In this document: piece by piece, positions 15,085 through 55,065 of the stretch
Layout: each line of letters begins with the position of its first letter
Position numbering within the stretch: position 1 is the stretch's first letter
DNA from: Eledone cirrhosa
Taxonomy: Eukaryota
Reading direction: 5' to 3'
NCBI GenBank assembly: GCA_964016885.1
Contig: OZ024742.1
Span: 306,652,001-306,716,000, forward strand
Length of the DNA: 64,000 nucleotides
Translations under genes and position numbers: made by a program
Notes under the pieces: generated by a model
What the model was told of the DNA's origin: nothing
The model's input: only the letters and a program-made list of their open reading frames with translations
Databases searched by the model: none

Positions 15085-15088
<4 letters not shown>
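14730..15088 (+). mobile_element. Fold-back PLE terminus in (TA)n
   Basis: Imperfect inverted arms about 14730-14815 / 14905-14990, then ACTCCAG...CTGTGGAGT hairpin and tail. Confidence 0.75.
14776..14840 (-). ncRNA. Type I hammerhead ribozyme
   Basis: ATTTTAT-CTGATGA-GGA...TCC-GAAA-TATGT-ATA-ATAAAAT; extended stem II TGTTGA/TCAATA. Confidence 0.7.
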
Positions 15089-15122
<34 letters not shown>

Positions 15123-15127
<5 letters not shown>

Positions 15128-17228: not shown

Positions 17229-17429
17229 GGACAAAATGAAAACACAACACACACATAGAACAAACAACCAACCAGTAACATGTAAATAAACAAATAAATA
17301 AATGAACATAAACACACACAGACACCCGGATGTAACGCATGCGCAGACTGAGCACACAACACACACACAGAAACCAAATGGCGTAGGACAGAACAAAGGA
17401 GAGGCACAGAAACAAAGAAAGGAATCCCC

Positions 17430-17474
17430 AGTCACTGAAGAGGTCACAGAGTGTGTGACGAAAGAACTATGACT
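17430..17474 (+). ncRNA. Minimal type I hammerhead in the PLE 3'UTR
   Basis: AGTCA-CTGAAGA-GGTCAC(AGAGTGT)GTGAC-GAAA-GAAC-TA-TGACT. Confidence 0.75.
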
Positions 17475-17672
17475 ATATATAAACAACTATCTGGTTGTGG
17501 AACCAACCAACCAACCAGAAATTTATAAATTTATAAATATATAATAAATTGAAGTGAAAGAAACTGGTGCGTGTGTTTCTTATTGGCAGCATGACCCTCC
17601 CAAAGTATAACAATATCGGTTTCAACACACGATTTCAGATAAAGAATCTTGCTAAACAAATTCAGAAACGAA

Positions 17673-17823: not shown

Positions 17824-18208
17824 TAGTGACGAAACATAAGTCAATTGCATGAACTCATAATCCTTTATTTACTGCTATATATATTTCGATGATAGCCATT
17901 GAATGGCTATGACCTCATCAGGCAGTTAGTCAGTTCTTAGATATGCCAGCTCTGTGTTTATAGTGTTGATGGTATCCAACACTATAACCGCAGAGCTGGC
18001 ATATCTAAGAACTGACTAACTGCCTGATGAGGTCATAGCCATTCAATGGCTATCATCGAAATATATATAGTAGTAAATAAAGGATTATGAGTTCATGCAA
18101 TTGACTTATGTTTCGTCACTATTATTACTCCGGAACTTATAACTTCGTTGAGTGCTCCCTATCCGCATACTGAAGTACTGGATTTTAACAACACCTACTT
18201 TCTTGCTT
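17824..18208 (+). mobile_element. Fold-back PLE terminus with a hammerhead in each arm
   Basis: About 145-bp inverted arms 17824-17968 / 17977-18121 plus tail; in (TA)n. Confidence 0.85.
18019..18074 (+). ncRNA. Type I hammerhead (mirror copy 17871-17926 on minus)
   Basis: ACTGC-CTGATGA-GGTCATAGCCAT(TCA)ATGGCTATCATC-GAAA-TATAT-ATA-GTAGT. Confidence 0.8.
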
Positions 18209-18395: not shown

Positions 18396-18453
<58 letters not shown>

Positions 18454-18494
18454 CGAAACATACGTCAATTGCATGAACTCATAATCCTTTTTTT

Positions 18495-18550
18495 ACTGCT
18501 ATATATATTTCGGTGATAGCCATTGAATGACTATGACCTCATCAGGCAGT
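18495..18550 (-). ncRNA. Type I hammerhead, same family as 18019
   Basis: Lies in repeat copy 18447-18615; stem II changes keep pairing. Confidence 0.8.
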
Positions 18551-18666
18551 TAGTCAGTTCTTAGATATGGCAGCTCTGTGTTGATGGTCTTGATGGTATC
18601 AGAGTCTTGGGATATATATAAAATAAAATAAATAAGTCAAATGTTTAAAATTTGGCCTCGTTTATT

Positions 18667-18721
18667 ACTGCTATATATATTTCGGTAACAGCCATCTTTG
18701 GCTGTGACCTCTTCAGGCAGT
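18667..18721 (-). ncRNA. Type I hammerhead, diverged relative of 18019
   Basis: ACTGC-CTGAAGA-GGTCACAGCCA(AAGA)TGGCTGTTACC-GAAA-TATAT-ATA-GCAGT; compensatory ACAGCCA/TGGCTGT. Confidence 0.8.
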
Positions 18722-18938: not shown

Positions 18939-19018
18939 CATGGCTATCATCGAAATATATATAGCAGTAAATAAAGGATCATGAGTTCATGTAATTGACT
19001 TACGTTTCGTCACTATAT

Positions 19019-20107
19019 ATCAATACAACCCCTAGAGGCGAACTAGCCTACAAATTTAGAAGGGCCCTAAATAAACATAATCTCAATATTAAGATAGTAG
19101 AAAGACCTGGTACCTCCGTAAAAACACTTATTAGCAAGACATACCCGTTCCAAAGACCCTCATGTATAGATAAGAAATGTATAACCTGTAAAATAAGCCC
19201 CCATATTAACTGTAAAACTAGAAATGTAGTGTATAGCATAAGATGTACTGAAGGACAATGTAGAAACAAAAATATAGTGTACATAGGTGAGACAGCTCGT
19301 AGTATAGGGGAACGAATAAATGAACACTGGCGAGACCTCCAAGATAATAAAGAATCATCTGTGCTCTACCAACATGCTAAGATAGAACACAGGGGTAGAT
19401 TAGAGAGCATAGAAATAAAAATAGAATCCACACACAGAAAAGACGCAATGTTTAGGCAAATTACAGAGGCAGTAAGCATAAAAGAATTAAAACCAAAATT
19501 AAATAGAAAATATGAGTGGAACAGCAACATCACAACTTACAATTAAGGACAAAATGAAAACACACACACACATAGAACAAACAACTTACAATTAAGGACA
19601 AAATGAAAACACACACAAAATGAAAACACACACTGGACAAAATGAAAACACACACACACATAGAACAAACAACCAACCAACAATAAATAAATAAATAAAT
19701 AAACAAATAGATAAATGAACACAAACACACAGAGACACCCGGATGTGGCGCATGCGCAAACTGAGCACACAACACACAAACAGAAACAAAATGGCGTAGG
19801 ATAGAAGAAAGGAAAGGCACAGAAACGAAGAAAGGAATCCCCAGTCACTGAAGAGGTCACAGAGTGTGTGACGAAAGGACTATGACTATATATAAACAAC
19901 TATCTGGTTGTGGAACCAACCAACCAACCAGAAATTTATAAGTTTGTAGGTTTGTAGATTTATAAATTTATAAATATATAATAAATTGAAGTGAAAGTAA
20001 CTGGTGCGTGTGTTTCTTATTGGCAACATGACCCTCCCAAAGTATAACAATATCGGTTTCAACACACGATTCCAGATAAAGAATCTTGCTAAACAAATTC
20101 AGAAACG

Positions 20108-20110
<3 letters not shown>
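19019..20110 (+). mobile_element. Second, more truncated copy of the 15122 PLE family (EN domain + 3'UTR)
   Basis: ORF 18995-19546 nearly identical to the C-terminus of the 701-aa ORF; same 3' end into (TA)n; local duplications at 19530-19660. Confidence 0.9.
19843..19887 (+). ncRNA. Minimal type I hammerhead (copy of 17430)
   Basis: AGTCA-CTGAAGA-GGTCAC...GTGAC-GAAA-GGAC-TA-TGACT. Confidence 0.75.
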
Positions 20111-20907: not shown

Positions 20908-21404
20908 ATATATTTATTGAAAGTGAAATAATGAAATATATTTCACCGAAAGTGATTTTTCATTACATCTCTTCTTTCCATGATATCCGGAATACATTGA
21001 GTTCTTCATACGGATTGGACACTACCGTAAACTCTTGGTAGATTTATCTACATATATATATATATATATATATAAATGGAACAGAATGAAACGAAATTTC
21101 ATTTCTCACTCTTAGTACGGCAGTTACTTAAATGTAAGTATGTATGTATGTATACGTACATAGATATCTGTATACAGACGTACAGTAGTATGTATATATA
21201 TACATACTACTGTACGTCTGTATACATATATGTATGTACGTATACATACATACTTATATATATATATATATATATTTGTGTGTGAGCATCTCTCTTTCTC
21301 TCTCTCTCTCTCTCTCACCATCTATCTCCCTCTCGATGTATGTGTATGTAGTCTTTTTTCACTCGTGGGGACTTAATGTTCTTAAATAAATAAGTATATT
21401 AATA

Positions 21405-24918: not shown

Positions 24919-27900
24919 CTCGGACGGCAGTATTACTGTTGCCTCCCTTTGTCACATTTTTCATCTTCTCGGACGGCAGAATTACTGTTGCCTCCCTTTC
25001 TTCACATTTTTCATCTTCTCGGACGGCAGAATTACTGTTGCCTCCCTTTCTTCACATTTTTCATCTTCTCGGACGGCAGAATTACTGTTGCCTCCCTTTC
25101 TTCACATTTTTCATCTTCTCGGACGGCAGTATTACTGTTGCCTCCCTGTCTTCACATTTTTCATCTTCTCGGACGGCAGTATTACTGTTGCCTCCCTTTG
25201 TCACATTTTTCATCTTCTCGGACGGCAGAATTACTGTTGCCTCCCTGTCTTCACATTTTTCATCTTCTCGGACGGCAGTATTAGTGTTGCCTCCCTTTCT
25301 TCACATTTTTCATCTTCTCGGACGGGAGTATTAGTGTTGCCTCCCTTTCTTCACATTTTTCATCTTCTCGGACGGCAGTATTACTGTTGCCTCCCTGTCT
25401 TCACATTTTTCATCATCTCGGACGGCAGTATTACTGTTGCCTCCCTTTCTTCACATTTTTCATCTTCTCGGACGGCAGTATTACTGTTGCCTCCCTGTCT
25501 TCACATTTTTCATCTTCTCGGACGGCAGTATTACTGTTGCCTCCCTGTCTTCACATTTTTCATCATCTCGGACGGCAGTATTACCGTTGCCTCCCTTTCT
25601 TCACATTTTTCATCTTCTCGGACGGCAGTATTACTGTTGCCTCCCTGTCTTCACATTTTTCATCTTCTCGGACGGCAGTATTACTGTTGCCTCCCTTTCT
25701 TCACATTTTTCATCTTCTCGGACGGCAGTATTACTGTTGCCTCACTTTCTTCACATTTTTAATCTTCTCGGACGGCAGTATTACTGTTGCCTCCCTTTCT
25801 TCACATTTTTCATCTTGTCGGACGGCAGAATTACTGTTGCCTCAATGTCTTCACATTTTTTATCTTCTCGGACGGCAGTATTAGTGTTGCCTCCCTTTCT
25901 TCACATTTTTCATCTTCTCGGACGGCAGTATTACTGTTGCCTACCTTTCTTCACATTTTTCATCTTCTCGGACGGCAGTATTACTGTTGCCTCCCTTTCT
26001 TCACATTTTTCATCTTCTCGGACGGCAGTATTACTGTTGCCTCCCTGTCTTCACATTTTTCATCTTCTCGCACGGCAGTATTACTGTTGCCTCCCTTTCT
26101 TCACATTTTTCATCTTCTCGGACGGCAGAATTACTGTTGCCTCCCTTTCTCACATTTTTCATTTTCTCGGACGGCAGTATTACTGTTGCCTCCCTGTCTT
26201 CACATTTTTCATCTTCTCGGACGGCAGAATTACTGTTGCCTCCCTTTCTCACATTTTTCATCTTCTCGCACGGCAGATTTACTGTTGCCTCCCTGTCTTC
26301 ACATTTTTCATCTTCTCGGACGGCAGTATTACTGTTGCCTCCCTTTCTTCACATTTTTCATCTTCTCGGACGGCGGTATTACTGTTGCCTCCCTTTCTTC
26401 ACATTTTTCATCTTCTCGGACGGCAGTATTACTGTTGCCTCCCTGTCTTCACATTTTTCATGTTCTCAGACGGCAGTATTAGTGTTGCCTCACTTTCTTC
26501 ACATTTGTCATCTTCTCGGACGGCAGAATTACTGTTGCCTCCCTTTCTTCACATTTGCCATCTTCTCGGACGGCAGAATTACTGTTGCCTCCCTGTCTTC
26601 ACATTTTTCATCTTCTCGGACGGCAGTATTAGTGTTGCTTCCCTTTCTTCACATTTTTCATCTTCTCGGACGACAGTATTACTGTTGCCTCCCTTTCTCA
26701 CATTTTTCATCTTCTCGGACGACAGTATTACTGTTGCCTCCCTTTCTTCACATTTTTCATCTTCTCGGACGGCAGTATTACTGTTGCCTCCCTTTCTTCA
26801 CATTTTTTATCTTCTCGGACGGCAGTATTAGTGTTGCCTCCCTTTCTTCACATTTTTCATCTTCTCGGACGGCAGTATTACTGTTGCCTCCCTTTCTTTA
26901 CATTTTTCATCTTCTCGGACGGCAGTATTACTGTTGCCTCCCTTTCTTCACATTTTTTATCTTCTCGGACGACAGTATTAGTGTTGCCTCCCTTCTTCAC
27001 ATTTTTCATCTTCTCGGACGGCAGAATTACTGTTGCCTCCCTTTCTTCACATTTTTCATCTTCTCGGACGGCAGTATTACTGTTGCCTCCCTGTCTTCAC
27101 ATTTTTCATCTTCTCGCACGGCAGTATTACTGTTGCCTCCCTTTCTTTACATTTTTCATCTTCTCGGACGGCAGAATTACTGTTGCCTCCCTGTCTTCAC
27201 ATTTTTCATCTTCTCGCACGGCAGTATTACTGTTGCCTCCCTTTCTTTACATTTTTCATCTTCTCGGACGGCAGTATTACTGTTGCCTCCCTGTCTTCAC
27301 ATTTTTCATCTTCTCGCACGGCAGTATTACTGTTGCCTCCCTTTCTTTACATTTTTCATCTTCTCGGACGGCGGTATTACTGTTGCCTCCCTGTCTTCAC
27401 ATTTTTCATCTTCTCGGACGGCAGAATTACTGTTGCCTCCCTTTCTCACATTTTTCATCTTCTCGCACGGCATATTTACTGTTGCCTCCCTGTCTTCACA
27501 TTTTTCATCTTCTCGGACGGCAGTATTACTGTTGCCTCCCTTTCTTCACATTTTTCATCTTCTCGGACGGCGGTATTACTGTTGCCTCCCTTTCTTCACA
27601 TTTTTCATCTTCTCGGACGGCAGAATTACTGTTGCCTCCCTTTCTTCACATTTGCCATCTTCTCGGACGGCAGAATTACTGTTGCCTCCCTGTCTTCACA
27701 TTTTTCATCTTCTCGGACGGCAGTATTAGTGTTGCTTCCCTTTCTTCACATTTTTCATCTTCTCGGACGACAGTATTACTGTTGCCTCCCTTTCTCACAT
27801 TTTTCATCTTCTCGGACGACAGTATTACTGTTGCCTCCCTTTCTTCACATTTTTCATCTTCTCGGACGGCAGTATTAGTGTTGCCTCCCTTTCTTCACAT

Positions 27901-30900
27901 TTTTTATCTTCTCGGACGGCAGAATTACTGTTGCCTCCCTGTCTTCACATTTTTCATCTTCTCGGACGGAAGTATTACTGTTGCCTCCCTTTCTTCACAT
28001 TTTTCATCTTCTCGGACGGCAGAATTACTGTTGCCTCCCTGTCTTCACATTTTTCATCTTCTCGGACGGCAGTATTAGTGTTGCCTCCCTTTCTTCACAT
28101 TTTTCATCTTCTCGGACGGCAGTATTAGTGTTGCCTCCCTTTCTTCACATTTTTCATATTCTTGGACGGCAGAATTACTGTTGCCCTCCCTGTCTTCACA
28201 TTTTTCATCTTGTCGGACGGCAGTATTACTGTTGCCTCCCTTTCTTCACATTTTTCATCTTCTCGGACGGCAGTATTACTGTTGCCTCCCTTTCTTCACA
28301 TTTTTCATCTTCTCGGACGGCAGTATTACTGTTGCCTCCCTTTCTTCACATTTTTCATCTTCTCGGACTGCAGAATTACTGTTGCCTCCCTTTCTTCACA
28401 TTTTTCATCTTCTCGGACGGCAGTATTACTGTTGCCTCCCTTTCTTCACATTTTTCATCTTCTCGGACTGCAGAATTACTGTTGCCTCCCTTTCTCACAT
28501 TTTTCATCTTCTCGGAAGGCAGTATTACTGTTGCCTCCCTTTCTTCACATTTTTCATCTTCTCGGACGGCAGAATTACTGTTGCCTCCCTTTCTCACATT
28601 TTTCATCTTCTAGCACGGCAGAATTACTGTTGCCTCCCTTTCTCACATTTTTCATCTTCTCGGACGGCAGTATTACTGTTGCCTCCCTTTCTTCACATTT
28701 TTCATCTTCTCGGACGGCAGTATTACTGTTGCCTCCCTTTGTCACATTTTTCATCTTCTCGGACGGCAGTATTACTGTTGCCTCCCTTTCTTCACATTTT
28801 TTATCTTCTCGGACGGCGGTATTACTGTTGCCTCCCTTTCTTCACATTTTTCATCTTCTCGGACGGCAGTATTACTGTTGCCTCCCTTTGTCACATTTTT
28901 CATCTTCTCGGACGGCAGAATTACTGTTGCCTCCCTTTCTTCACATTTTTCATCTTCTCGGACGGCAGAATTACTGTTGCCTCCCTTTCTTCACATTTTT
29001 CATCTTCTCGGACGGCAGAATTACTGTTGCCTCCCTTTCTTCACATTTTTCATCTTCTCGGACGGCAGTATTACTGTTGCCTCCCTGTCTTCACATTTTT
29101 CATCTTCTCGGACGGCAGTATTACTGTTGCCTCCCTTTGTCACATTTTTCATCTTCTCGGACGGCAGAATTACTGTTGCCTCCCTGTCTTCACATTTTTC
29201 ATCTTCTCGGACGGCAGTATTAGTGTTGCCTCCCTTTCTTCACATTTTTCATCTTCTCGGACGGCAGTATTAGTGTTGCCTCCCTTTCTTCACATTTTTC
29301 ATCTTCTCGGACGGCAGTATTACTGTTGCCTCCCTGTCTTCACATTTTTCATCATCTCGGACGGCAGTATTACTGTTGCCTCCCTTTCTTCACATTTTTC
29401 ATCTTCTCGGACGGCAGTATTACTGTTGCCTCCCTGTCTTCACATTTTTCATCTTCTCGGACGGCAGTATTACTGTTGCCTCCCTGTCTTCACATTTTTC
29501 ATCATCTCGGACGGCAGTATTACTGTTGCCTCCCTTTCTTCACATTTTTCATCTTCTCGGACGGCAGTATTACTGTTGCCTCCCTGTCTTCACATTTTTC
29601 ATCTTCTCGGACGGCAGTATTACTGTTGCCTCCCTTTCTCACATTTTTCATCTTCTCGGACGGCAGAATTACTGTTGCCTCCCTGTCTTCACATTTTTCA
29701 TCTTCTCGGACGTCAGTATTAGTGTTGCCTCCCTTTCTTCACATTTTTCATCTTCTCGGACGGCAGTAATACTGTTGACTCACTTTCTTCACATTTTTAA
29801 TCTTCTCGGACGGCAGTATTACTGTTGCCTCCCTTTCTTCACATTTTTCATCTTGTCGGACGGCAGAATTACTGTTGCCTCAATGTCTTCACATTTTTTA
29901 TCTTCTCGGACGGCAGTATTAGTGTTGCCTCCCTTTCTTCACATTTTTCATCTTCTCGGACGGCAGTATTACTGTTGCCTCCCTTTCTTCACATTTTTCA
30001 TCTTCTCGGACGGCAGTATTACTGTTGCCTCCCTTTCTTCACATTTTTCATCTTCTCGGACGGCAGTATTACTGTTGCCTCCCTGTCTTCACATTTTTCA
30101 TCTTCTCGCACGGCAGTATTACTGTTGCCTCCCTTTCTTCACATTTTTCATCTTCTCGGACGGCAGAATTACTGTTGCCTCCCTTTCTCACATTTTTCAT
30201 TTTCTCGGACGGCAGTATTACTGTTGCCTCCCTGTCTTCACATTTTTCATCTTCTCGGACGGCAGAATTACTGTTGCCTCCCTTTCTCACATTTTTCATC
30301 TTCTCGCACGGCAGATTTACTGTTGCCTCCCTGTCTTCACATTTTTCATCTTCTCGGACGGCAGTATTACTGTTGCCTCCCTTTCTTCACATTTTTCATC
30401 TTCTCGGACGGCGGTATTACTGTTGCCTCCCTTTCTTCACATTTTTCATCTTCTCGGACGGCAGTATTACTGTTGCCTCCCTGTCTTCACATTTTTCATG
30501 TTCTCAGACGGCAGTATTAGTGTTGCCTCCCTTTCTTCACATTTGTCATCTTCTCGGACGGCAGAATTACTGTTGCCTCCCTTTCTTCACATTTGCCATC
30601 TTCTCGGACGGCAGAATTACTGTTGCCTCCCTGTCTTCACATTTTTCATCTTCTCGGACGGCAGTATTAGTGTTGCTTCCCTTTCTTCACATTTTTCATC
30701 TTCTCGGACGACAGTATTACTGTTGCCTCCCTTTCTCACATTTTTCATCTTCTCGGACGACAGTATTACTGATGCCTCCCTTTCTTCACATTTTTCATCT
30801 TCTCGGACGGCAGTATTACTGTTGCCTCCCTTTCTTCACATTTTTTATCTTCTCGGACGGCAGTATTAGTGTTGCCTCCCTTTCTTCACATTTTTCATCT

Positions 30901-33900
30901 TCTCGGACGGCAGTATTACTGTTGCCTCCCTTTCTTTACATTTTTCATCTTCTCGGACGGCAGTATTACTGTTGCCTCCCTTTCTTCACATTTTTTATCT
31001 TCTCGGACGACAGTATTAGTGTTGCCTCCCTTCTTCAGATTTTTCATCTTCTCGGACGGCAGAATTACTGTTGCCTCCCTTTCTTCACATTTTTCATCTT
31101 CTCGGACGGCAGTATTACTGTTGCCTCCCTGTCTTCACATTTTTCATCTTCTCGCACGGCAGTATTACTGTTGCCTCCCTTTCTTTACATTTTTCATCTT
31201 CTCGGACGGCAGAATTCCTGTTGCCTCCCTGTCTTCACATTTTTCATCTTCTCGCACGGCAGTATTACTGTTGCCTCCCTTTCTTTACATTTTTCATCTT
31301 CTCGGACGGCAGTATTACTGTTGCCTCCCTGTCTTCACATTTTTCATCTTCTCGCACGGCAGTATTACTGTTGCCCCCCTTTCTTTACATTTTTCATCTT
31401 CTCGGACGGCGGTATTACTGTTGCCTCCCTGTCTTCACATTTTTCATCTTCTCGGACGGCAGAATTACTGTTGCCTCCCTTTCTCACATTTTTCATCTTC
31501 TCGCACGGCATATTTACTGTTGCCTCCCTGTCTTCACATTTTTCATCATCTCGGACGGCAGTATTACTGTTGCCTCCCTTTCTTCACATTTTTCATCTTC
31601 TCGGACGGCAGTATTACTGTTGCCTCCCTGTCTTCACATTTTTCATCTTCTCGGACGGCAGTATTACTGTTGCCTCCCTTTCTCACATTTTTCATCTTCT
31701 CGGACGGCAGAATTACTGTTGCCTCCCTGTCTTCACATTTTTCATCTTCTCGGACGGCAGTATTAGTGTTGCCTCCCTTTCTTCACATTTTTCATCTTCT
31801 CGGACGGCAGTAATACTGTTGCCTCACTTTCTTCACATTTTTAATCTTCTCGGACGGCAGTATTACTGTTGCCTCCCTTTCTTCACATATTTCATCTTGT
31901 CGGACGGCAGAATTACTGTTGCCTCAATGTCTTCACATTTTTTATCTTCTCGGACGGCAGTATTAGTGTTGCCTCCCTTTCTTCACATTTTTCATCTTCT
32001 CGGACGGCAGTATTACTGTTGCCTCCCTTTCTTCACATTTTTCATCTTCTCGGACGGCAGTATTACTGTTGCCTCCCTTTCTTCACATTTTTCATCTTCT
32101 CGGACGGCAGTATTACTGTTGCCTCCCTGTCTTCACATTTTTCATCTTCTCGCACGGCAGTATTACTGTTGCCTCCCTTTCTTCACATTTTTCATCTTCT
32201 CGGACGGCAGAATTACTGTTGCCTCCCTTTCTCACATTTTTCATTTTCTCGGACGGCAGTATTACTGTTGCCTCCCTGTCTTCACATTTTTCATCTTCTC
32301 GGACGGCAGAATTACTGTTGCCTCCCTTTCTCACATTTTTCATCTTCTCGCACGGCAGATTTACTGTTGCCTCCCTGTCTTCACATTTTTCATCTTCTCG
32401 GACGGCAGTATTACTGTTGCCTCCCTTTCTTCACATTTTTCATCTTCTCGGACGGCGGTATTACTGTTGCCTCCCTTTCTTCACATTTTTCATCTTCTCG
32501 GACGGCAGTATTACTGTTGCCTCCCTGTCTTCACATTTTTCATGTTCTCAGACGGCAGTATTAGTGTTGCCTCCCTTTCTTCACATTTGTCATCTTCTCG
32601 GACGGCAGAATTACTGTTGCCTCCCTTTCTTCACATTTGCCATCTTCTCGGACGGCAGAATTACTGTTGCCTCCCTGTCTTCACATTTTTCATCTTCTCG
32701 GACGGCAGTATTAGTGTTGCTTCCCTTTCTTCACATTTTTCATCTTCTCGGACGACAGTATTACTGTTGCCTCCCTTTCTCACATTTTTCATCTTCTCGG
32801 ACGACAGTATTACTGTTGCCTCCCTTTCTTCACATTTTTCATCTTCTCGGACGGCAGTATTACTGTTGCCTCCCTTTCTTCACATTTTTTATCTTCTCGG
32901 ACGGCAGTATTAGTGTTGCCTCCCTTTCTTCACATTTTTCATCTTCTCGGACGGCAGTATTACTGTTGCCTCCCTTTCTTTACATTTTTCATCTTCTCGG
33001 ACGGCAGTATTACTGTTGCCTCCCTTTCTTCACATTTTTTATCTTCTCGGACGACAGTATTAGTGTTGCCTCCCTTCTTCAGATTTTTCATCTTCTCGGA
33101 CGGCAGAATTACTGTTGCCTCCCTTTCTTCACATTTTTCATCTTCTCGGACGGCAGTATTACTGTTGCCTCCCTGTCTTCACATTTTTCATCTTCTCGCA
33201 CGGCAGTATTACTGTTGCCTCCCTTTCTTTACATTTTTCATCTTCTCGGACGGCAGAATTCCTGTTGCCTCCCTGTCTTCACATTTTTCATCTTCTCGCA
33301 CGGCAGTATTACTGTTGCCTCCCTTTCTTTACATTTTTCATCTTCTCGGACGGCAGTATTACTGTTGCCTCCCTGTCTTCACATTTTTCATCTTCTCGCA
33401 CGGCAGTATTACTGTTGCCCCCCTTTCTTTACATTTTTCATCTTCTCGGACGGCGGTATTACTGTTGCCTCCCTGTCTTCACATTTTTCATCTTCTCGGA
33501 CGGCAGAATTACTGTTGCCTCCCTTTCTCACATTTTTCATCTTCTCGCACGGCATATTTACTGTTGCCTCCCTGTCTTCACATTTTTCATCTTCTCGGAC
33601 GGCAGTATTACTGTTGCCTCCCTTTCTTCACATTTTTCATCTTCTCGGACGGCGGTATTACTGTTGCCTCCCTTTCTTCACATTTTTCATCTTCTCGGAC
33701 GGCAGAATTACTGTTGCCTCCCTTTCTTCACATTTGCCATCTTCTCGGACGGCAGAATTACTGTTGCCTCCCTGTCTTCACATTTTTCATCTTCTCGGAC
33801 GGCAGTATTAGTGTTGCTTCCCTTTCTTCACATTTTTCATCTTCTCGGACGACAGTATTACTGTTGCCTCCCTTTCTCACATTTTTCATCTTCTCGGACG

Positions 33901-36900
33901 ACAGTATTACTGTTGCCTCCCTTTCTTCACATTTTTCATCTTCTCGGACGGCAGTATTAGTGTTGCCTCCCTTTCTTCACATTTTTTATCTTCTCGGACG
34001 GCAGAATTACTGTTGCCTCCCTGTCTTCACATTTTTCATCTTCTCGGACGGAAGTATTACTGTTGCCTCCCTTTCTTCACATTTTTCATCTTCTCGGACG
34101 GCAGAATTACTGTTGCCTCCCTGTCTTCACATTTTTCATCTTCTCGGACGGCAGTATTAGTGTTGCCTCCCTTTCTTCACATTTTTCATCTTCTCGGACG
34201 GCAGTATTAGTGTTGCCTCCCTTTCTTCACATTTTTCATATTCTTGGACGGCAGAATTACTGTTGCCCTCCCTGTCTTCACATTTTTCATCTTGTCGGAC
34301 GGCAGTATTACTGTTGCCTCCCTTTCTTCACATTTTTCATCTTCTCGGACGGCAGTATTACTGTTGCCTCCCTTTCTTCACATTTTTCATCTTCTCGGAC
34401 GGCAGTATTACTGTTGCCTCCCTTTCTTCACATTTTTCATCTTCTCGGACTGCAGAATTACTGTTGCCTCCCTTTCTTCACATTTTTCATCTTCTCGGAC
34501 GGCAGTATTACTGTTGCCTCCCTTTCTTCACATTTTTCATCTTCTCGGACTGCAGAATTACTGTTGCCTCCCTTTCTCACATTTTTCATCTTCTCGGAAG
34601 GCAGTATTACTGTTGCCTCCCTTTCTTCACATTTTTCATCTTCTCGGACGGCAGAATTACTGTTGCCTCCCTTTCTCACATTTTTCATCTTCTAGCACGG
34701 CAGAATTACTGTTGCCTCCCTGTCTTCACATTTTTCATCTTCTCGGACGGCAGTATTACTGTTGCCTCCCTTCTTCACATTTTTCATCTTCTCGGACGGC
34801 GGTATTACTGTTGCCTCCCTTTCTTCACATTTTTCATCTTCTCGGACGGCAGTATTACTGTTGCCTCCCTGTCTTCACATTTTTCATCTTCTCAGACGGC
34901 AGTATTAGTGTTGCCTCCCTTTCTTCACATTTGTCATCTTCTCGGACGGCAGAATTACTGTTGCCTACTTTCTTCACATTTGTCATCTTCTCGGACGGCA
35001 GAATTACTGTTGCCTCCCTTTCTTCACATTTGCCATCTTCTGGGACGGCAGAATTACTGTTGCCTCCCTGTCTTCACATTTTTCATCTTCTCGGACGGCA
35101 GAATTACTGTTGCCTCCCTTTCTCACATTTTTCATTTTCTCGGACGGCAGTATTACTGTTGCCTCCCTGTCTTCACATTTTTCATCTTCTCGGACGGCAG
35201 AATTACTGTTGCCTCCCTTTCTCACATTTTTCATCTTCTCGCACGGCAGATTTACTGTTGCCTCCCTGTCTTCACATTTTTCATCTTCTCGGACGGCAGT
35301 ATTACTGTTGCCTCCCTTTCTTCACATTTTTCATCTTCTCGGACGGCGGTATTACTGTTGCCTCCCTTTCTTCACATTTTTCATCTTCTCGGACGGCAGT
35401 ATTACTGTTGCCTCCCTGTCTTCACATTTTTCATGTTCTCAGACGGCAGTATTAGTGTTGCCTCCCTTTCTTCACATTTGTCATCTTCTCGGACGGCAGA
35501 ATTACTGTTGCCTCCCTTTCTTCACATTTGCCATCTTCTCGGACGGCAGAATTACTGTTGCCTCCCTGTCTTCACATTTTTCATCTTCTCGGACGGCAGT
35601 ATTAGTGTTGCTTCCCTTTCTTCACATTTTTCATCTTCTCGGACGACAGTATTACTGTTGCCTCCCTTTCTCACATTTTTCATCTTCTCGGACGACAGTA
35701 TTACTGTTGCCTCCCTTTCTTCACATTTTTCATCTTCTCGGACGGCAGTATTACTGTTGCCTCCCTTTCTTCACATTTTTTATCTTCTCGGACGGCAGTA
35801 TTAGTGTTGCCTCCCTTTCTTCACATTTTTCATCTTCTCGGACGGCAGTATTACTGTTGCCTCCCTTTCTTTACATTTTTCATCTTCTCGGACGGCAGTA
35901 TTACTGTTGCCTCCCTTTCTTCACATTTTTTATCTTCTCGGACGACAGTATTAGTGTTGCCTCCCTTCTTCAGATTTTTCATCTTCTCGGACGGCAGAAT
36001 TACTGTTGCCTCCCTTTCTTCACATTTTTCATCTTCTCGGACGGCAGTATTACTGTTGCCTCCCTGTCTTCACATTTTTCATCTTCTCGCACGGCAGTAT
36101 TACTGTTGCCTCCCTTTCTTTACATTTTTCATCTTCTCGGACGGCAGAATTCCTGTTGCCTCCCTGTCTTCACATTTTTCATCTTCTCGCACGGCAGTAT
36201 TACTGTTGCCTCCCTTTCTTTACATTTTTCATCTTCTCGGACGGCAGTATTACTGTTGCCTCCCTGTCTTCACATTTTTCATCTTCTCGCACGGCAGTAT
36301 TACTGTTGCCCCCCTTTCTTTACATTTTTCATCTTCTCGGACGGCGGTATTACTGTTGCCTCCCTGTCTTCACATTTTTCATCTTCTCGGACGGCAGAAT
36401 TACTGTTGCCTCCCTTTCTCACATTTTTCATCTTCTCGCACGGCATATTTACTGTTGCCTCCCTGTCTTCACATTTTTCATCTTCTCGGACGGCAGTATT
36501 ACTGTTGCCTCCCTTTCTTCACATTTTTCATCTTCTCGGACGGCGGTATTACTGTTGCCTCCCTTTCTTCACATTTTTCATCTTCTCGGACGGCAGAATT
36601 ACTGTTGCCTCCCTTTCTTCACATTTGCCATCTTCTCGGACGGCAGAATTACTGTTGCCTCCCTGTCTTCACATTTTTCATCTTCTCGGACGGCAGTATT
36701 AGTGTTGCTTCCCTTTCTTCACATTTTTCATCTTCTCGGACGACAGTATTACTGTTGCCTCCCTTTCTCACATTTTTCATCTTCTCGGACGACAGTATTA
36801 CTGTTGCCTCCCTTTCTTCACATTTTTCATCTTCTCGGACGGCAGTATTAGTGTTGCCTCCCTTTCTTCACATTTTTTATCTTCTCGGACGGCAGAATTA

Positions 36901-39900
36901 CTGTTGCCTCCCTGTCTTCACATTTTTCATCTTCTCGGACGGAAGTATTACTGTTGCCTCCCTTTCTTCACATTTTTCATCTTCTCGGACGGCAGAATTA
37001 CTGTTGCCTCCCTGTCTTCACATTTTTCATCTTCTCGGACGGCAGTATTAGTGTTGCCTCCCTTTCTTCACATTTTTCATCTTCTCGGACGGCAGTATTA
37101 GTGTTGCCTCCCTTTCTTCACATTTTTCATATTCTTGGACGGCAGAATTACTGTTGCCCTCCCTGTCTTCACATTTTTCATCTTGTCGGACGGCAGTATT
37201 ACTGTTGCCTCCCTTTCTTCACATTTTTCATCTTCTCGGACGGCAGTATTACTGTTGCCTCCCTTTCTTCACATTTTTCATCTTCTCGGACGGCAGTATT
37301 ACTGTTGCCTCCCTTTCTTCACATTTTTCATCTTCTCGGACTGCAGAATTACTGTTGCCTCCCTTTCTTCACATTTTTCATCTTCTCGGACGGCAGTATT
37401 ACTGTTGCCTCCCTTTCTTCACATTTTTCATCTTCTCGGACTGCAGAATTACTGTTGCCTCCCTTTCTCACATTTTTCATCTTCTCGGAAGGCAGTATTA
37501 CTGTTGCCTCCCTTTCTTCACATTTTTCATCTTCTCGGACGGCAGAATTACTGTTGCCTCCCTTTCTCACATTTTTCATCTTCTAGCACGGCAGAATTAC
37601 TGTTGCCTCCCTGTCTTCACATTTTTCATCTTCTCGGACGGCAGTATTACTGTTGCCTCCCTTCTTCACATTTTTCATCTTCTCGGACGGCGGTATTACT
37701 GTTGCCTCCCTTTCTTCACATTTTTCATCTTCTCGGACGGCAGTATTACTGTTGCCTCCCTGTCTTCACATTTTTCATCTTCTCAGACGGCAGTATTAGT
37801 GTTGCCTCCCTTTCTTCACATTTGTCATCTTCTCGGACGGCAGAATTACTGTTGCCTACTTTCTTCACATTTGTCATCTTCTCGGACGGCAGAATTACTG
37901 TTGACTCCCTTTCTTCACATTTGCCATCTTCTGGGACGGCAGAATTACTGTTGCCTCCCTGTCTTCACATTTTTCATCTTCTCGGACGGCAGTATTAGTG
38001 TTGCTTCCCTTTCTTCACATTTTTCATCTTCTCGGACGACAGTATTACTGTTGCCTCCCTTTCTCACATTTTTCATCTTCTCGGACGACAGTATTACTGT
38101 TGCCTCCCTTTCTTCACATTTTTCATCTTCTCGGACGGCAGTATTAGTGTTGCCTCCCTTTCTTCACATTTTTTATCTTCTCGGACGGCAGAATTACTGT
38201 TGCCTCCCTGTCTTCACATTTTTCATCTTCTCGGACGGAAGTATTACTGTTGCCTCCCTTTCTTCACATTTTTCATCTTCTCGGACGGCAGAATTACTGT
38301 TGCCTCCCTGTCTTCACATTTTTCATCTTCTCGGACGGCAGTATTAGTGTTGCCTCCCTTTCTTCACATTTTTCATCTTCTCGGACGGCAGTATTAGTGT
38401 TGCCTCCCTTTCTTCACATTTTTCATATTCTTGGACGGCAGAATTACTGTTGCCCTCCCTGTCTTCACATTTTTCATCTTGTCGGACGGCAGTATTACTG
38501 TTGCCTCCCTTTCTTCACATTTTTCATCTTCTCGGACGGCAGTATTACTGTTGCCTCCCTTTCTTCACATTTTTCATCTTCTCGGACGGCAGTATTACTG
38601 TTGCCTCCCTTTCTTCACATCTTTCATCTTCTCGGACTGCAGAATTACTGTTGCCTCCCTTTCTTCACATTTTTCATCTTCTCGGACGGCAGTATTACTG
38701 TTGCCTCCCTTTCTTCACATTTTTCATCTTCTCGGACTGCAGAATTACTGTTGCCTCCCTTTCTCACATTTTTCATCTTCTCGGAAGGCAGTATTACTGT
38801 TGCCTCCCTTTCTTCACATTTTTCATCTTCTCGGACGGCAGAATTACTGTTGCCTCCCTTTCTCACATTTTTCATCTTCTAGCACGGCAGAATTACTGTT
38901 GCCTCCCTGTCTTCACATTTTTCATCTTCTCGGACGGCAGTATTAGTGTTGCCTCCCTTTCTTCACATTTTTCATCTTCTCGGACGGCAGAATTACTGTT
39001 GCCTCCCTGTCTTCACATTTTTCATCTTCTCGGACGGCAGTATTAGTGTTGCCTCCCTTTCTTCACATTTTTCATCTTCTCGGACGGCAGTATTAGTGTT
39101 GCCTCCCTTTCTTCACATTTTTCATCTTCTCGGACGGCGGTATTACTGTTGCCTCCCTTTCTTCACATTTTTCATCTTCTCGGACGGCAGTATTACTGTT
39201 GCCTCCCTGTCTTCACATTTTTCATCTTCTCGGACGGCAGTATTAGTGTTGCTTCCCTTTCTTCACATTTTTCATCTTCTCGGACGACAGTATTACTGTT
39301 TTCTCCCTTTCTCACATTTTTCATCTTCTCGGACGGCAGTATTACTGTTGCCTCCCTTTCTTCACATTTTTTATCTTCTCGGACGGCAGAATTACTGTTG
39401 CCTCCCTGTCTTCACATTTTTCATCTTCTCGGACGGAAGTATTACTGTTGCCTCCCTTTCTTCACATTTTTCATCTTCTCGGACGGCAGAATTACTGTTG
39501 CCTCCCTGTCTTCACATTTTTCATCTTCTCGGACGGCAGTATTAGTGTTGCCTCCCTTTCTTCACATTTTTCATCTTCTCGGACGGCAGTATTAGTGTTG
39601 CCTCCCTTTCTTCACATTTTTCATATTCTTGGACGGCAGAATTACTGTTGCCCTCCCTGTCTTCACATTTTTCATATTCTTGGACGGCAGAATTACTGTT
39701 GCCCTCCCTGTCTTCACATTTTTCATCTTGTCGGACGGCAGTATTACTTTTGCCTCCCTTTCTTCACATTTTTCATCTTCTCGGACGGCAGAATTACTGT
39801 TGCCTCCCTTTCCCACATTTTTCATCTTCTCGGACGGCAGTATTACTGTTGCCTCCCTTTCTTCACATTTTTCATCTTCTCGGACGGCAGTATTACTATT

Positions 39901-40179
39901 GCCTCCCTTTCTTCACATTTTTCATCTTCTCGGACGGCAGTATTACTGTTGCCTCCCTTTCTTCACATTTTTCATCTTCTCGGACTGCAGAATTACTGTT
40001 GCCTCCCTTTCTTCACATTTTTCATCTTCTCGGACGGCAGTATTACTGTTGCCTCCCTTTCTTCACATTTTTCATCTTCTCGGACTGCAGAATTACTGTT
40101 GCCTCCCTTTCTCACATTTTTCATCTTCTCGGACGGCAGTATTACTGTTGCCTCCCTTTCTTCACATTTTTCATCTTCT
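24919..40179. repeat. Satellite array of about 305 units of 49-51 bp; consensus CTTCTCGGACGGCAGTATTACTGTTGCCTCCCTTTCTTCACATTTTTCAT
   Basis: Direct observation; pyrimidine-rich plus strand; kb-scale higher-order duplications. Confidence 0.99.
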
Positions 40180-49248: not shown

Positions 49249-50054
49249 CATATATATATATACGAAATTACTAATCTCGGAAATACATACTTAAGTTGCA
49301 AGCTCAGACGCAGAAAATAACTGCAATTACACTCAGTTTCTATAAAATAGCTTTAACAATATCGGGTAAAGAATCCTTATATATATATGCATACAGTATA
49401 ATACGCAAAGATACATATATATATACTTTGATGCATACAGACACACAGACACACATATATATGTGTAAGTGAGAGTGTATCCGCGTGAGCATGTGTGCGT
49501 GTTTTTGTGTGCGCTAGCGTGCGTGGGATGAGTTACCTGTTTGTTTATGTCCCGCTGCTGATAAGCCCCATTTACTTATTATCCAAGTCCTTAAACAATA
49601 TAACTGCACATAGAAAGATCTATCAGTTGGTGGAATTCTCTTTAAAATCAATTAAGTATTATTTATTAAGTATCTTTATATGAATGTAAAGAGTGTGTGC
49701 ACTGAGCAGTACCTATAGGATATGATTGATTATTAATTTCTCTGATATAAAAGGGGAGCGAAATGAAAGTGGTTATATCTCAATATATAACATAATATAC
49801 ATTGTCGTTCCCATTCATATAATCTACGGTGACATCAGCAAGTTGTCATGAAAATATTTATTATACTTTTTATCGCATAAATATCGAATAAATATTCCCA
49901 ACGAGCCAGACCTGCATTTTCTTCAAGGCAAGTGCAATAAACGAAAAAAGATATACATAGTTCGTGATGTATATATTAATAACCAAAAAACCTGGGTGTG
50001 CCTCTTCAGATCAATAAGAACCCCCCCCCCCCCACACACACACACACACACCAG

Positions 50055-52370
50055 CCTATTGGAAGAGTTCGAGAAAGAAATGATTGGCATCATTTCCAAC
50101 ATCAAATTTTCCGACCAACCATACCGGGGTCGAGAGTACCTTAGACGACTGGAAAATGAAATTACCGAGCTTAAGGAATATACAGGAATACTCGTCCATG
50201 CCGACAAAACCAACAACCTTTACAGCATGGACGTTCAACTTTACCATGAGCTAATCCTCAGGGAATTGAGAATAAGATACAAAAAAACGCCCGAGGCTAC
50301 CCTGGAGGATATCAACATCAAGGCTTATGAGATCGTATCTGGTCTTGGTATAGATGATAGGACGGCCCCATACCAACCAAGGGAGCCGAATATTACCATT
50401 AAGGACGACAAACCAAACTTCGAGTCTAACCTGCCGGTCAGACTGATAGCCCCCTCCCGGTCAGACATGGGGGTTATTAGCAAAAGCATTTTAGATAGGA
50501 TCCTGCCCACACTTAAGAGTAAAATAAGGTTACAACTCTGGTCCTGCACCAGCCAGGTGCTGGACTGGTTTACGTTTTTACCTGACAAACATAGGACTAG
50601 CTTCATACAACTAGACATCAACAATTACTATTCCTCTATCTCGCCCATAGTCCTGAACAAGGCACTCATATTCGCGATGAATAGGACAGACCTAACACGC
50701 GACGAGGTCCGAATCATACACGCCACCAGAAAGATCCTGATCCGATTCGGTGGGGACATATGGACCCGGAGCGACTGGCCAAATAATTTTGACATTACAA
50801 TGAGCTCCAGTGACTCCGCGCAGCTAACGGACTTGGTTGGGATATACATACTCTACGAGATCAGGAGAGAAATACCCAACGACAATGGTCGAAAATATGA
50901 AGCGGAGAATTAGGCACTTCTTTAGCAAGGTAGGACTTAAAGTAGATATGGAAGCCAATAGAAAAGTAGTGAATTTACTGGACACCACCCTCAACCTCAA
51001 CACCAAGCTACACCACCCACATCATAAACCCAATGAGAAGCTGGTGTATATCAACGCTGGGTCCAATCACCCTAGATCTATAGTTAAGATCGTAGTTAAG
51101 AGATCTTCAATAGTAACGCTGATTACTATAACTCAGCGCTAGCCAAGGCGTCCCACGGCCATAGGATCAGCTACAACCCTAAGGGAATGATCGAGATGAC
51201 CCAGGGGTACCCCGGACCAATACCCTCAGGGGCATGAGTCGCCCACCTAATACCTCGGTGACCAGTAGTAACACTCCCAGACACCTATCCATCACCACCC
51301 CCGGTAGAAGGTCCCGCATACCCCACCGGTCTAATACCTACAACGCTGAAGACCACTGTGCAGCGGAGCATAGGCACCCCTGCACCGGCCCCACCACCCG
51401 CCGAATCCTAATTGAGCAGAGAAGCCGCACCTCACAGGTGTATAGCCCCACGGTGGTCCCATATAACCCTCGTGATAGTGACCGCTCCACACACCTGAGT
51501 AACACCAACCGAGCTCGACCTGAGCTGTGCACAACCACGCGCTGGACCACGGCGGACACCCAACAACCCCGCAAGAATAGGACCAGGAAGGTCACATGGT
51601 ATAACCGTCCGTACTCGGTGGGTCTACGTACCAGCCTGGCTAGAACATTCTTTAGAGTACTGGATAAATGTTTCCCTAGGGCCCACAAGTACCATAAAAT
51701 ATTCAACAGGCACACGGTGAAGCTTTCCTACTCAACCACACGCTCCGTAGCCCAGCACATAGCTGGCATAAATAGGAATAGGCTCACTGCCTCTAATACC
51801 ACCGTAAACCCCGGAGCCACCCAACAGAACCAGCTCGCGGGACGCACCGGAACCCGGACGGGCCCAACTAGCACACCGGAACCCAACGACCCTGTGCTGA
51901 TTGCGGAGGCTACCCAGCCAACCCTGAGTGATGGTAACCACGCGGTACATGTGGTGGGGCTTAAGAAGTCATGTAATTGCAGAGACCCATCAATATGCCC
52001 CCTTAGTAATGAATGCATGACGAAAAACTTAGTCTACAGGTGCAAGGACACAACCCTTAACTCGGAGCACCACTACATAGGATCCACAGCGACGAGCTTC
52101 AAAGATCGGTGGTATAACCATCGCCATGCCTTTAACAGAATAGATAAGAGGAAATGTACGGCCCTTTCTGAATTGATCTGGAAGCTCAAACTTGAAAAGA
52201 CCCCGCACTCTCTGGTCTGGTCCGTGGTTAGAAAGGCTCCCCCAGACAGAGGCGGGTCTGGCATTTGCAACCTCTGTCTTAGTGAGACACTCGAGATACT
52301 TCATGGCGGAACCAAGCTATTAAAAAGAAGGGCCGACTTAATCGGTACCTGTAGACCTGTAGACACGTAA
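50055..52370 (+). pseudogene. Disrupted PLE RT / GIY-YIG ORF
   Basis: LVHADKT, FIQLDINNYYSSI, FDITM..DSAQLTDLVG, LLDTTLNL, SNHP, CNCRDPSICPL, HYIG, CNLC; YRDD motif absent near 50885 with a frameshift. Confidence 0.88.
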
Positions 52371-52686
52371 GGACGGGAACATTCCTCAAACTATATGGAT
52401 AAACCCCGGTTAAGGCCTCCCACAACGCCCCCCCCCCTCCCTGTAGGTCCGTTACACCCCGTACCAATGACCAATGGACAACAACAACCACACATAGTTT
52501 GTGGTCCCTATGGTGGATGGTCCACCGGATCCTCTACTGGTTAGGAGTCATCAAAACCACGTTTAATTGAACCTGTACAATGACTCACGTTCTATGCAAA
52601 TTAGTCTACCCACTACTAATTTTCATAGAAAAAGCATATAACGATATGTGCTTTTACAATTCTCCAGAGAAGCCGGAAGATGGGTA

Positions 52687-52731
52687 AATATTGCTGATGA
52701 GATGTAATAACATCGAAACTAGTCCAATATT
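52687..52731 (+). ncRNA. Minimal type I hammerhead, copy 1
   Basis: AATATTG-CTGATGA-GATG(TAATAA)CATC-GAAA-CTA-GTC-CAATATT; palindromic stem III ACTAGT; predicted cleavage after 52724. Confidence 0.88.
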
Positions 52732-53155
52732 CCTGTCTGGCCCTCTGGAGAATAGAGGAAATGTGTTTCCTTGAAAACTCGTATGACTCTAAAACCCGGT
52801 CCGTCTGTGTGGTTACATACAGACTAGCTGACACTCACTGTAAAGTGTCTAGTGAAAAACTGAGTACATGTACATATGTATACATGTGTGTATTTATATG
52901 CATACTAATACTTCCGTATACATATGTAGATGTACACTTTAACTTAATTGTTTAAGCGTCAGTCATACAAAAGTGAGTTAGAAGCGAAACGAAATTTAAT
53001 TTCGTTTCGTTATTTGTTTTTATCGTTTCCGCTGAACCGGTGCGTACAATGACTCACGTTCTATGCAAATTAGTCTACCCACTACTAATTTTCATAGAAA
53101 AAGCATATAACGATATGTGCTTTTACAATTCTCCAGAGAAGCCGGAAGATGGGTA

Positions 53156-53200
53156 AATATTGCTGATGAGATGTAATAACATCGAAACTAGTCCAATATT
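53156..53200 (+). ncRNA. Minimal type I hammerhead, copy 2
   Basis: Identical to copy 1. Confidence 0.88.
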
Positions 53201-53624
53201 CCTGTCTGGCCCTCTGGAGAATAGAGGAAATGTGTTTCCTTGAAAACTCGTATGACTCTAAAACCCGGTCCGTCTGTGTGGTTACATACAGACTAGCTGA
53301 CACTCACTGTAAAGTGTCTAGTGAAAAACTGAGTACATGTACATATGTATACATGTGTGTATTTATATTCATACTAATACTTCCGTATACATATGTAGAT
53401 GTACACTTTAACTTAATTGTTTAAGCGTCAGTCATACAAAAGTGAGTTAGAAGCGAAACGAAATTTAATTTCGTTTCGTTATTTGTTTTTATCGTTTCCG
53501 CTGAACCGGTGCGTACAATGACTCACGTTCTATGCAAATTAGTCTACCCACTACTAATTTTCATAGAAAAAGCATATAACGATATGTGCTTTTACAATTC
53601 TCCAGAGAAGCCGGAAGATGGGTA

Positions 53625-53669
53625 AATATTGCTGATGAGATGTAATAACATCGAAACTAGTCCAATATT
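53625..53669 (+). ncRNA. Minimal type I hammerhead, copy 3
   Basis: Identical to copy 1. Confidence 0.88.
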
Positions 53670-53896
53670 CCTGTCTGGCCCTCTGGAGAATAGAGGAAAT
53701 GTGTTTCCTTGAAAACACGTATGACTCTAAAACCCGGTCCGTCTGTGTGGTTACATACAGACTAGCTGACACTCACTGTAAAGTGTCTAGTGAAAAACTG
53801 AGTACATGTACATATGTATACATGTGTGTATTTATATGCATACTAATACTTCCGTATACATATGTAGATGTACACTTTAACTTAATTGACTTAATT

Positions 53897-53969
<73 letters not shown>

Positions 53970-54016
53970 GTGTATATATATATATATTGTATATGTGTAT
54001 ATGTGTGTATTTTATA

Positions 54017-54062
<46 letters not shown>

Positions 54063-54896
54063 TATATATATAGATATATATATATTATATATATATATAT
54101 ATATGTAAATATATGTATTTTAAATGCATATATATGCATGTATATTTTATATGTATGTGTATTTTATATATATGTGTATTTTATATGTGTATATATATTT
54201 TATATATATATGTGTTTTATATATATATATGTATTTTATATGTATATATATATATAGGTGTGCATACATATATATATATATACACACCTGTATGGATTTG
54301 TGTGTGTAGATGTGTGTGTGTTTGAGGGGGTAGGTGTGAGTATGTATAAGTCAACCAACATAAGCCTTTTATTTCTAAATTTTCTAAACTATCTATGTAT
54401 CTGACTCTAACCATTATTATTATTTTAAGTATCACCACCCCACATTAATTCCTCAATTTGTATGTGTGGATGTGTGTGTGTGTGTGGCGGTGGGTGTGAG
54501 TGTACGTGCAAGCCAACCTACATAAGTCTTTTTATTTGTAAATTTTCTACTCTAACCATAATTTTCAGTAGCACCACTCCACATAAATTCCTCAATTTAA
54601 GAATGACCTGTAGTATCTATTTCATACTATTAACCTTAATTGAATATATATCTGAACAGGAATGATTTTTGTGAAAATCAGTCATATGGAACTATTGTCT
54701 TCTTGCCTGACGGTTTGAACATTACAACACCACCTGCCTCTTTGAAGTCAAATACCAACCCTACTAGCATCTACCAATGAGAATTAAGACTATTCCTGCT
54801 GACAACATTAAATTATTCCTAACAAGCTCATATGTCCCAAGGCTCTGATACCATCAACACTATAAACACAGAGCTGGCATATCTAAGAACTGACTA

Positions 54897-54952
54897 ACTG
54901 CCTGATGAGGTCATAGCCATTCAATGGCTATCATCGAAATATATATAGCAGT
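54897..54952 (+). ncRNA. Type I hammerhead, same family as 18019, in repeat copy about 54830-54996
   Basis: ACTGC-CTGATGA-...-GAAA-TATAT-ATA-GCAGT. Confidence 0.8.
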
Positions 54953-54994
54953 AAATAAAGGATTCTGAGTTCATGCAATTGACTTATGCTTCGT

Positions 54995-55065
<71 letters not shown>

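What the first reader, a model, noticed from the sequence alone, without database searches (positions are those of the whole stretch)
52575..53888. Retrozyme-like 469-nt tandem still attached to its parent PLE: predicted circular RNA
Seen: three near-identical units, each with a canonical GUC hammerhead in a long stem (TTCTCCAGAG..GCCGGA..AATATTG / CAATATT..TCTGGC.CTCTGGAGAA) and several more hairpins (AAAAGCATAT/ATGTGCTTTT, GTCTGTGTG/CATACAGAC, GACACT/AGTGTC, AACGAAAT/ATTTCGTT). Established: minimal HHRs with palindromic stem III cleave as dimers, and metazoan non-LTR retrozymes are tandem HHR repeats that yield circRNAs. Inference: cleavage after 52724, 53193 and 53662 releases exact 469-nt monomers, and the tandem may reflect rolling reverse transcription of a circle, i.e. 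a retrozyme arising from a PLE pLTR.
Basis: partly seen in the sequence, partly recalled or inferred. Interest (0 to 1): 0.8.

Follow-up and report, generated by a model that had tools for sequence, protein, structure and literature searches.

The report
Young retrozyme nested in unrelated retrotransposon
A ribozyme-carrying 469-base tandem repeat sits inside the tail of an older, unrelated, broken Penelope-like retrotransposon; it belongs to a large, young, protein-free repeat family whose insertion ends suggest it is likely copied by Penelope-like enzymes, possibly from a circular RNA.

Summary
The repeat and ribozyme are real; the 'parent' is not. The 2.8 units (52575-53901) each carry a type I hammerhead with predicted cuts after 52724, 53193 and 53662. 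But 19 of 19 other host copies spanning the site lack the unit, the junction occurs once in the genome, and the host, a dead Hydra-clade PLE, has its own pLTR and hammerhead downstream (cut after 54947). The array is a younger insertion into the host's (TA)n tract. It belongs to an ORF-free family with at least 1541 insertion ends and arms of up to about 30 units: a non-LTR retrozyme. Its insertions carry PLE marks: (TA)n targets, inverted two-arm layout, and two fixed 3' ends about 70 nt apart (45 of 61 sampled). Both arms share one haplotype in 27 of 30 insertions (8% for cross pairs). One haplotype forms near-identical arrays at 7 loci, with an 18-unit arm that has no longer template in the assembly; this favours rolling reverse transcription. 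Against: arrays also turn over at DNA level, breaks are not enriched at the cut site, and cleavage and circular RNA are untested. The mobilising PLE was not found.

The parts
52575..53901 (+). Retrozyme insertion: one arm of 2.8 units, 5'-truncated, ending at the family's fixed inner 3' end (unit position 375/380) next to (TA)n; no ORF longer than 87 codons; GC 36%
52687..52731 (+). Type I hammerhead 1 (stem I 52687-52693 with 52725-52731; core from 52694; predicted cut after 52724)
53156..53200 (+). Type I hammerhead 2 (predicted cut after 53193)
53625..53669 (+). Type I hammerhead 3 (predicted cut after 53662)
52725..53193 (+). Predicted 469-nt monomer between two cut sites; its two ends are held together by stem I
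53880..53901 (+). 3' end of the insertion with a 9-nt tandem duplication, possibly a re-priming scar (inferred)
49973..52574 (+). Host Hydra-clade PLE body: 5'-truncated, with a 54-nt deletion at 50879/50880 that removes the YRDD motif, and further frameshifts; DKT and CxCX5C motifs present
53902..54249 (+). Host (TA)-rich spacer, the target of the insertion; 217-395 nt in 17 of 19 other copies
54250..54997 (+). The host's own 3' region and pLTR, with its own hammerhead (core from 54902, predicted cut after 54947), ending at (TA)n

Best explanation
The 469-nt tandem is a young, ORF-free hammerhead repeat (non-LTR retrozyme) inserted into the (TA)n tract of an older, unrelated Hydra-clade Penelope-like element, and it was likely copied there by the enzyme of another, unidentified Penelope-like element from a predicted circular or end-paired RNA monomer. 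Shown: nesting, family size, absence of an ORF, (TA)n targeting, two fixed 3' ends, inverted arms with matching haplotypes. Inferred steps: (1) an array is transcribed; (2) neighbouring hammerheads pair through the ACUAGU palindrome and cut out 469-nt monomers; (3) the monomer is ligated or stays closed by stem I; (4) a PLE RT-endonuclease nicks both strands of a (TA)n tract and starts cDNA at two fixed internal sites (unit 375/380 and 449); (5) each cDNA runs round the RNA for a variable number of turns, and their 5' ends are joined, giving an inverted two-arm array, or one arm as in this window; (6) older arrays are later reshuffled at DNA level.
For: Nesting. Family: 449 matches from 39 of 642 candidates scored; 1541 exact (TA)n-449 ends; 1787 exact copies of one hammerhead variant. 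PLE marks: 45 of 61 insertions taken in listed order along contig C1 end in an inverted 375/380 arm, 14 have none and 2 run off the fetched stretch. The Neptune and Hydra PLEs of this genome also show two fixed ends beside (TA)n, 60 and 88 nt apart. Two internal RT start sites explain the PLE tail (PMC11167929). One template per insertion: arms differ by 1% or less in 27 of 30 unbiased insertions, against 68 of 859 cross pairs. One haplotype has 69 exact motif copies at 7 loci; units are essentially identical, and the longest arm is about 18 units with no longer same-strand template in the assembly. 12 of 26 arrays with 4 or more full units have no shared internal variant, and shared variants rise with singleton load (rho 0.45, p 0.02). 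Ribozyme kept: 0 of 16 fixed core positions vary between subfamilies while 92 of 493 columns do (p about 0.04); 2 compensatory pairs, one in stem II, and 98.9% of cells paired in 12 chosen variants.
Against: No RNA evidence was obtained. 5' breaks are not enriched at the cut site: 8 of 106 lie within 141-161 against 4.7 expected (p 0.10), none at 151. 14 of 26 arrays carry shared internal variants (one of the 14, L133, pools two insertions); two such variants are confined to one locus genome-wide, one of them in both arms. So DNA-level copying between units and arms happens and could also lengthen or homogenise arrays. In the anole PLE, uncut RNA was the main substrate and hammerhead mutants still inserted. 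Only 1 of 9 predicted Xenopus retrozyme dimers cleaved in vitro. Minimal PLE hammerheads cleave weakly. No autonomous partner sharing the unit's sequence was found.
Confidence: 0.62

Rival explanations
1. Same family and same PLE machinery, but the template is a long uncut multimeric transcript of a source array; the hammerhead is weak or a passenger, and long arms grow by DNA-level duplication.
For: Frangieh et al.: unprocessed RNA was the dominant substrate, with no reads at the cut site. Breaks are not enriched at 151. Periodic variant patterns occur in older arrays. Local copying is shown by locus-private shared variants.
Against: The 18-unit arm of a mutation-free haplotype has no longer source in the assembly. 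New haplotypes are repeatedly fixed across all units of both arms. The two mixed variants tested do not recur at other loci, as copies of a mixed source would. The core is conserved across subfamilies.
Confidence: 0.32
2. The tandem is the multiplied pLTR of the adjacent Hydra PLE, a retrozyme being born from its parent.
For: Same strand, directly after the ORF's 3' UTR; pLTR-retrozyme kinship is reported in Xenopus.
Against: 19 of 19 host copies lack it; the junction is unique; the host has its own pLTR and hammerhead; similarity between unit and host 3' region is limited to a TA-rich stretch; this host copy lacks YRDD; 8 of 61 other insertions lie within 1.5 kb of various different PLEs.
Confidence: 0.02
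3. An ordinary satellite spread by DNA mechanisms, with a relic hammerhead.
For: Long arrays with higher-order patterns exist.
Against: Over 1500 dispersed insertions with fixed 3' ends, variable 5' ends, inverted arms and (TA)n flanks are marks of target-primed retrotransposition.
Confidence: 0.04

Closest known systems
Metazoan non-LTR retrozymes (Cervera & de la Pena 2020, PMC7229834; review PMC7761336)
   Same: ORF-free tandem repeats with a type I hammerhead in each unit, GC below 50%, highly self-paired predicted monomer, many loci.
   Different: The unit (about 461-473 nt) is longer than the 170-400 nt circles reported there. In the passages I read the mobiliser is only proposed and no diagnostic motif is known; here the insertions show two fixed 3' ends, inverted arms and (TA)n targets. 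Circular RNA was shown for coral, mussel and axolotl, not here.
Li, Clavereau & Pollet 2026, bioRxiv 10.64898/2026.07.22.740005
   Same: [quoted passage not shown]
   Different: Their evidence is co-occurrence and pLTR phylogeny, mostly in vertebrates. Here the evidence is insertion-end anatomy, and the adjacent PLE is not the parent.
PLE insertions with inverted 5' copy and tail; non-autonomous Chlamys such as MRC1 (Craig et al. 2021, PMC8557442; Frangieh et al. 2024, PMC11167929)
   Same: Inverted truncated arm, tail between two RT start sites, microsatellite targeting, multicopy head-to-tail non-autonomous insertions.
   Different: The tail is about 70 nt rather than 30-40; no ORF; arms reach about 30 units; Chlamys generally lack canonical hammerheads; no autonomous family with matching 3' end was found.
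Hydra-clade PLE (the host)
   Same: DKT, CxCX5C linker, C-terminal endonuclease region, hammerhead in the pLTR, (TA)n insertion.
   Different: It is the landing site, not the source, of the tandem; this copy is truncated and lacks YRDD.

Membership tests
Non-LTR retrozyme | Tandem units each with a complete type I hammerhead, at least two in a row | tested here: met
Non-LTR retrozyme | No protein-coding capacity; low GC; no LTRs | tested here: met
   Longest stop-free frame 87 codons, GC 36%; arrays flanked by (TA)n. PBS and PPT were not searched for.
Non-LTR retrozyme | Dispersed multi-locus family independent of an ORF | tested here: met
   1541 ends; ORF-free arrays; 8 of 61 have a PLE protein hit within 1.5 kb, from different families
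Non-LTR retrozyme | Self-cleavage of the transcript | not testable with these tools
   Only structure and conservation
Non-LTR retrozyme | Expressed as monomeric circular RNA | tested here: inconclusive
   No listed holder is on record as RNA, and only contigs could be laid
pLTR of the adjacent PLE | Same repeat ends other copies of that PLE family and precedes its ORF | tested here: not met
PLE-mobilised non-autonomous element | Two fixed 3' ends (tail), inverted 5'-truncated arm, microsatellite target | tested here: met
PLE-mobilised non-autonomous element | 3' sequence shared with an autonomous PLE | tested here: inconclusive
   None found in 1.18 Mb of loci and 60 further hammerhead loci; the genome could not be scanned whole
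Hydra-clade PLE (host) | RWK-like, DKT and CxCX5C motifs, hammerhead, (TA)n insertion | tested here: met
   RWR in copy L051, DKT and CNCRDPSIC in the window copy; definition. No tree was built.

The most novel reading that the evidence does not exclude
These insertions are a genomic record of a PLE enzyme reverse-transcribing one circular ribozyme RNA from two fixed start sites about 70 nt apart, each rolling for up to about 30 turns to build the two arms of an inverted array. That would tie animal retrozymes mechanistically to PLE machinery and to a circular template, in a family active very recently.
Probability: 0.5. Interest if true: 0.7.

Novelty: new member of a known kind. Interest (0 to 1): 0.45.

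Why it matters
Which enzyme mobilises animal retrozymes, and whether the circle is the template, is stated as a hypothesis in the papers read. This family gives base-level start sites, a defined target and mutation-free recent insertions, so both questions can be tested directly. It also warns that a hammerhead tandem next to a PLE ORF can be nesting through a shared (TA)n target rather than parentage.

Tried and rejected
Rfam at gathering threshold: 0 matches. Pfam on 4 PLE fragments: only a weak RVT_1 hit on the Neptune-type ORF. Sequencing runs: no RNA holder listed among 7 runs. Laying 4 runs on a 419-base part: the guessed-RNA run gave 0 contigs; two runs of unrecorded type gave 499- and 497-nt contigs about one unit long, one of which loops back on itself, which a DNA tandem also produces, so this is no evidence of a circle; runs coded as organisms C and D carry diverged relatives. 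Earlier findings of this scan: none. Search for the autonomous partner: profile search of 1.18 Mb of loci, hammerhead patterns with other stem II lengths (182 and 174 matches, 30 loci fetched each) and tblastn found only a sister ORF-free family; a protein search of the genome failed on a frame slip and was not repeated. In-register matching of variants between the two arms fit some arrays (L042, L028, L029) and not others (L031/L032), so it was dropped. Mosaic scan of 329 full units found 1 subfamily switch, with an interval starting at the cut site but 69 nt wide, on a small contig: too weak to use. RNAcofold did not give the dimeric stem III, which needs a pseudoknotted fold it cannot model. 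Literature searches listed no paper on this family or on two-arm end anatomy of retrozymes; the library lacks most subscription papers, and supplements were not read (those of the preprint are closed), so a prior description, for example in Repbase, is not excluded.

Full report
Observation. The tandem is real: period 469, 2.8 copies, 99% matches, with 3 mismatches between copies. Each unit has a type I hammerhead with a 7-bp stem I, 5-bp stem II and a 2-bp stem III inside the palindrome ACUAGU; predicted cuts follow 52724, 53193 and 53662. All quoted hairpin arms are present. The monomer folds far better than its shuffles (z = -10.85, 0 of 100). Rfam does not detect it.

The adjacent PLE is not its parent. 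The upstream ORF fragments carry DKT and CxCX5C motifs, and a fuller copy has RWR, matching the Hydra clade as defined in PMC8557442 (no tree built). I fetched 20 host copies chosen from the top hits. 19 span the site, and all 19 continue from the same base into a TA-rich spacer and then into sequence matching window 54250-54995, without the unit; the spacer is 217-395 nt in 17 and longer in 2. One fetched stretch (L068) holds a separate, diverged array about 2 kb beyond the host's end. The host's downstream part has its own hammerhead (cut after 54947), and in L051 that pLTR end leads into the ORF start. The host-unit junction motif occurs once in 3.0 Gb. Host copies are about 88-95% alike; the window's units are above 99% alike to other loci. 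The window's host copy is 5'-truncated and lacks YRDD through a 54-nt deletion. The array therefore landed later in the host's first (TA)n run, with loss of a few host bases. Such neighbours are common: 8 of 61 other insertions lie within 1.5 kb of a PLE protein hit, from several families.

The family. The unit gave 449 matches from 39 of 642 candidates scored. One exact end motif occurs 1541 times and one hammerhead variant 1787 times. 15 long arrays, picked for being top hits, had no host body joined. For a less biased set I took 60 stretches from the first 59 places listed (all on contig C1, all with the 449 end by construction; the 12th place fell inside the 11th stretch), giving 61 junctions, two of which are a duplicated segment. 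45 have an inverted second arm ending at unit position 375 or 380 beside (TA)n (pattern call; some are short remnants), 14 have none and 2 run off the stretch. Subfamilies of about 461-473 nt differ by up to about 12%. The catalytic core is invariant between subfamilies except the cleavage base (p about 0.04), and stems hold with 2 compensatory pairs among 12 variants that I chose (related sequences can beat the shuffles, so this is modest support). A sister ORF-free family of about 420 nt has the same layout.

How it moves. Fixed 3' ends, variable 5' ends, an inverted arm and microsatellite targets are PLE marks (PMC8557442). In vitro, a PLE RT starts at two adjacent internal sites that define the genomic tail (PMC11167929). 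The Neptune and Hydra elements of this genome show two ends 60 and 88 nt apart, and the retrozyme about 70. PLE mobilisation is thus well supported by inference, though no partner with shared sequence was found. The window's copy is a one-arm insertion ending at 375/380.

Circle or multimer. For a single monomeric template: the two arms differ by 1% or less in 27 of 30 unbiased insertions against 68 of 859 cross pairs. One haplotype has 69 motif copies at 7 loci; its arrays are essentially identical, up to 26 units in one insertion, and the 18-unit arm has no longer template in the assembly. 12 of 26 arrays lack shared internal variants, and such variants rise with singleton load. Against: 14 of 26 arrays are mixed; two mixed variants are private to their locus, one in both arms, so local DNA copying occurs and could explain some length and homogeneity; a source array could be missing from the assembly; breaks are not enriched at the cut site (8 of 106, p 0.10; some values are phase artefacts); and published tests show weak or dispensable cleavage. 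No RNA data could be used. I put nesting at about 0.97, PLE mobilisation at about 0.9 and a circular or end-paired monomer template at about 0.65.

Relation to what is known. It meets the sequence criteria of non-LTR retrozymes and fails the test for being this PLE's pLTR. Retrozyme origin from PLEs and rolling reverse transcription are already proposed in print. What I read: the preprint, parts 1-3 of 5 (abstract through discussion); PMC7229834, parts 2-3 of 6, the discussion and passages; PMC11167929, parts 1-2 of 4; PMC8557442, passages and section 11; PMC4209133 and PMC7761336, passages only; no supplements. Eight searches listed no description of this family or of two-arm ends in retrozymes, within a library that lacks most subscription papers.

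Verdict. The feature is real and the headline claim of a retrozyme still attached to its parent is wrong. It is a new member of a known kind, whose value lies in a young family with base-level start sites that makes the mobiliser and circle questions testable. Interest 0.45.

Noticed in passing
window 21070-21260; L146:4733-7221; L047:8382-9202: A sister ORF-free hammerhead family of about 420 nt, remotely homologous to the 469-nt unit (E about 1e-31), also with two fixed ends and (TA)n targets; a short two-arm remnant lies in the window.
   Followed up: partly
L139:7280-7900: A third hammerhead tandem, period about 310 nt, with a different palindromic stem III.
   Followed up: no
L138:4173-4639 (contig C744): A unit switches subfamily haplotype somewhere in the 69 nt that start right after the cleavage base; possible template switch or ligation at the cut site, or an assembly chimera.
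   Followed up: partly
window 24919-40179: A 50-bp minisatellite, 306 copies, 15 kb, 93% matches.
   Followed up: no
window 15081-17670 and 18995-20110: Neptune-type PLE copies with their own 3' region, and inverted pLTR remnants of the Hydra host family at about 17826-18200 and 18449-18700.
   Followed up: partly
L076:2000-5390: An open 1130-aa Neptune-type ORF, a candidate recently active PLE; its 3' end shows no evident likeness to the unit.
   Followed up: partly
L119:4700-5500: A retrozyme array sits directly at the (TA)n end of a Neptune-type element, a second case of apparent attachment to a different PLE.
   Followed up: yes
L095 and L096 (G000:C1 near 55.97-55.99 Mb): Two matching insertions with the same layout 17.7 kb apart, probably a segmental duplication.
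   Followed up: no
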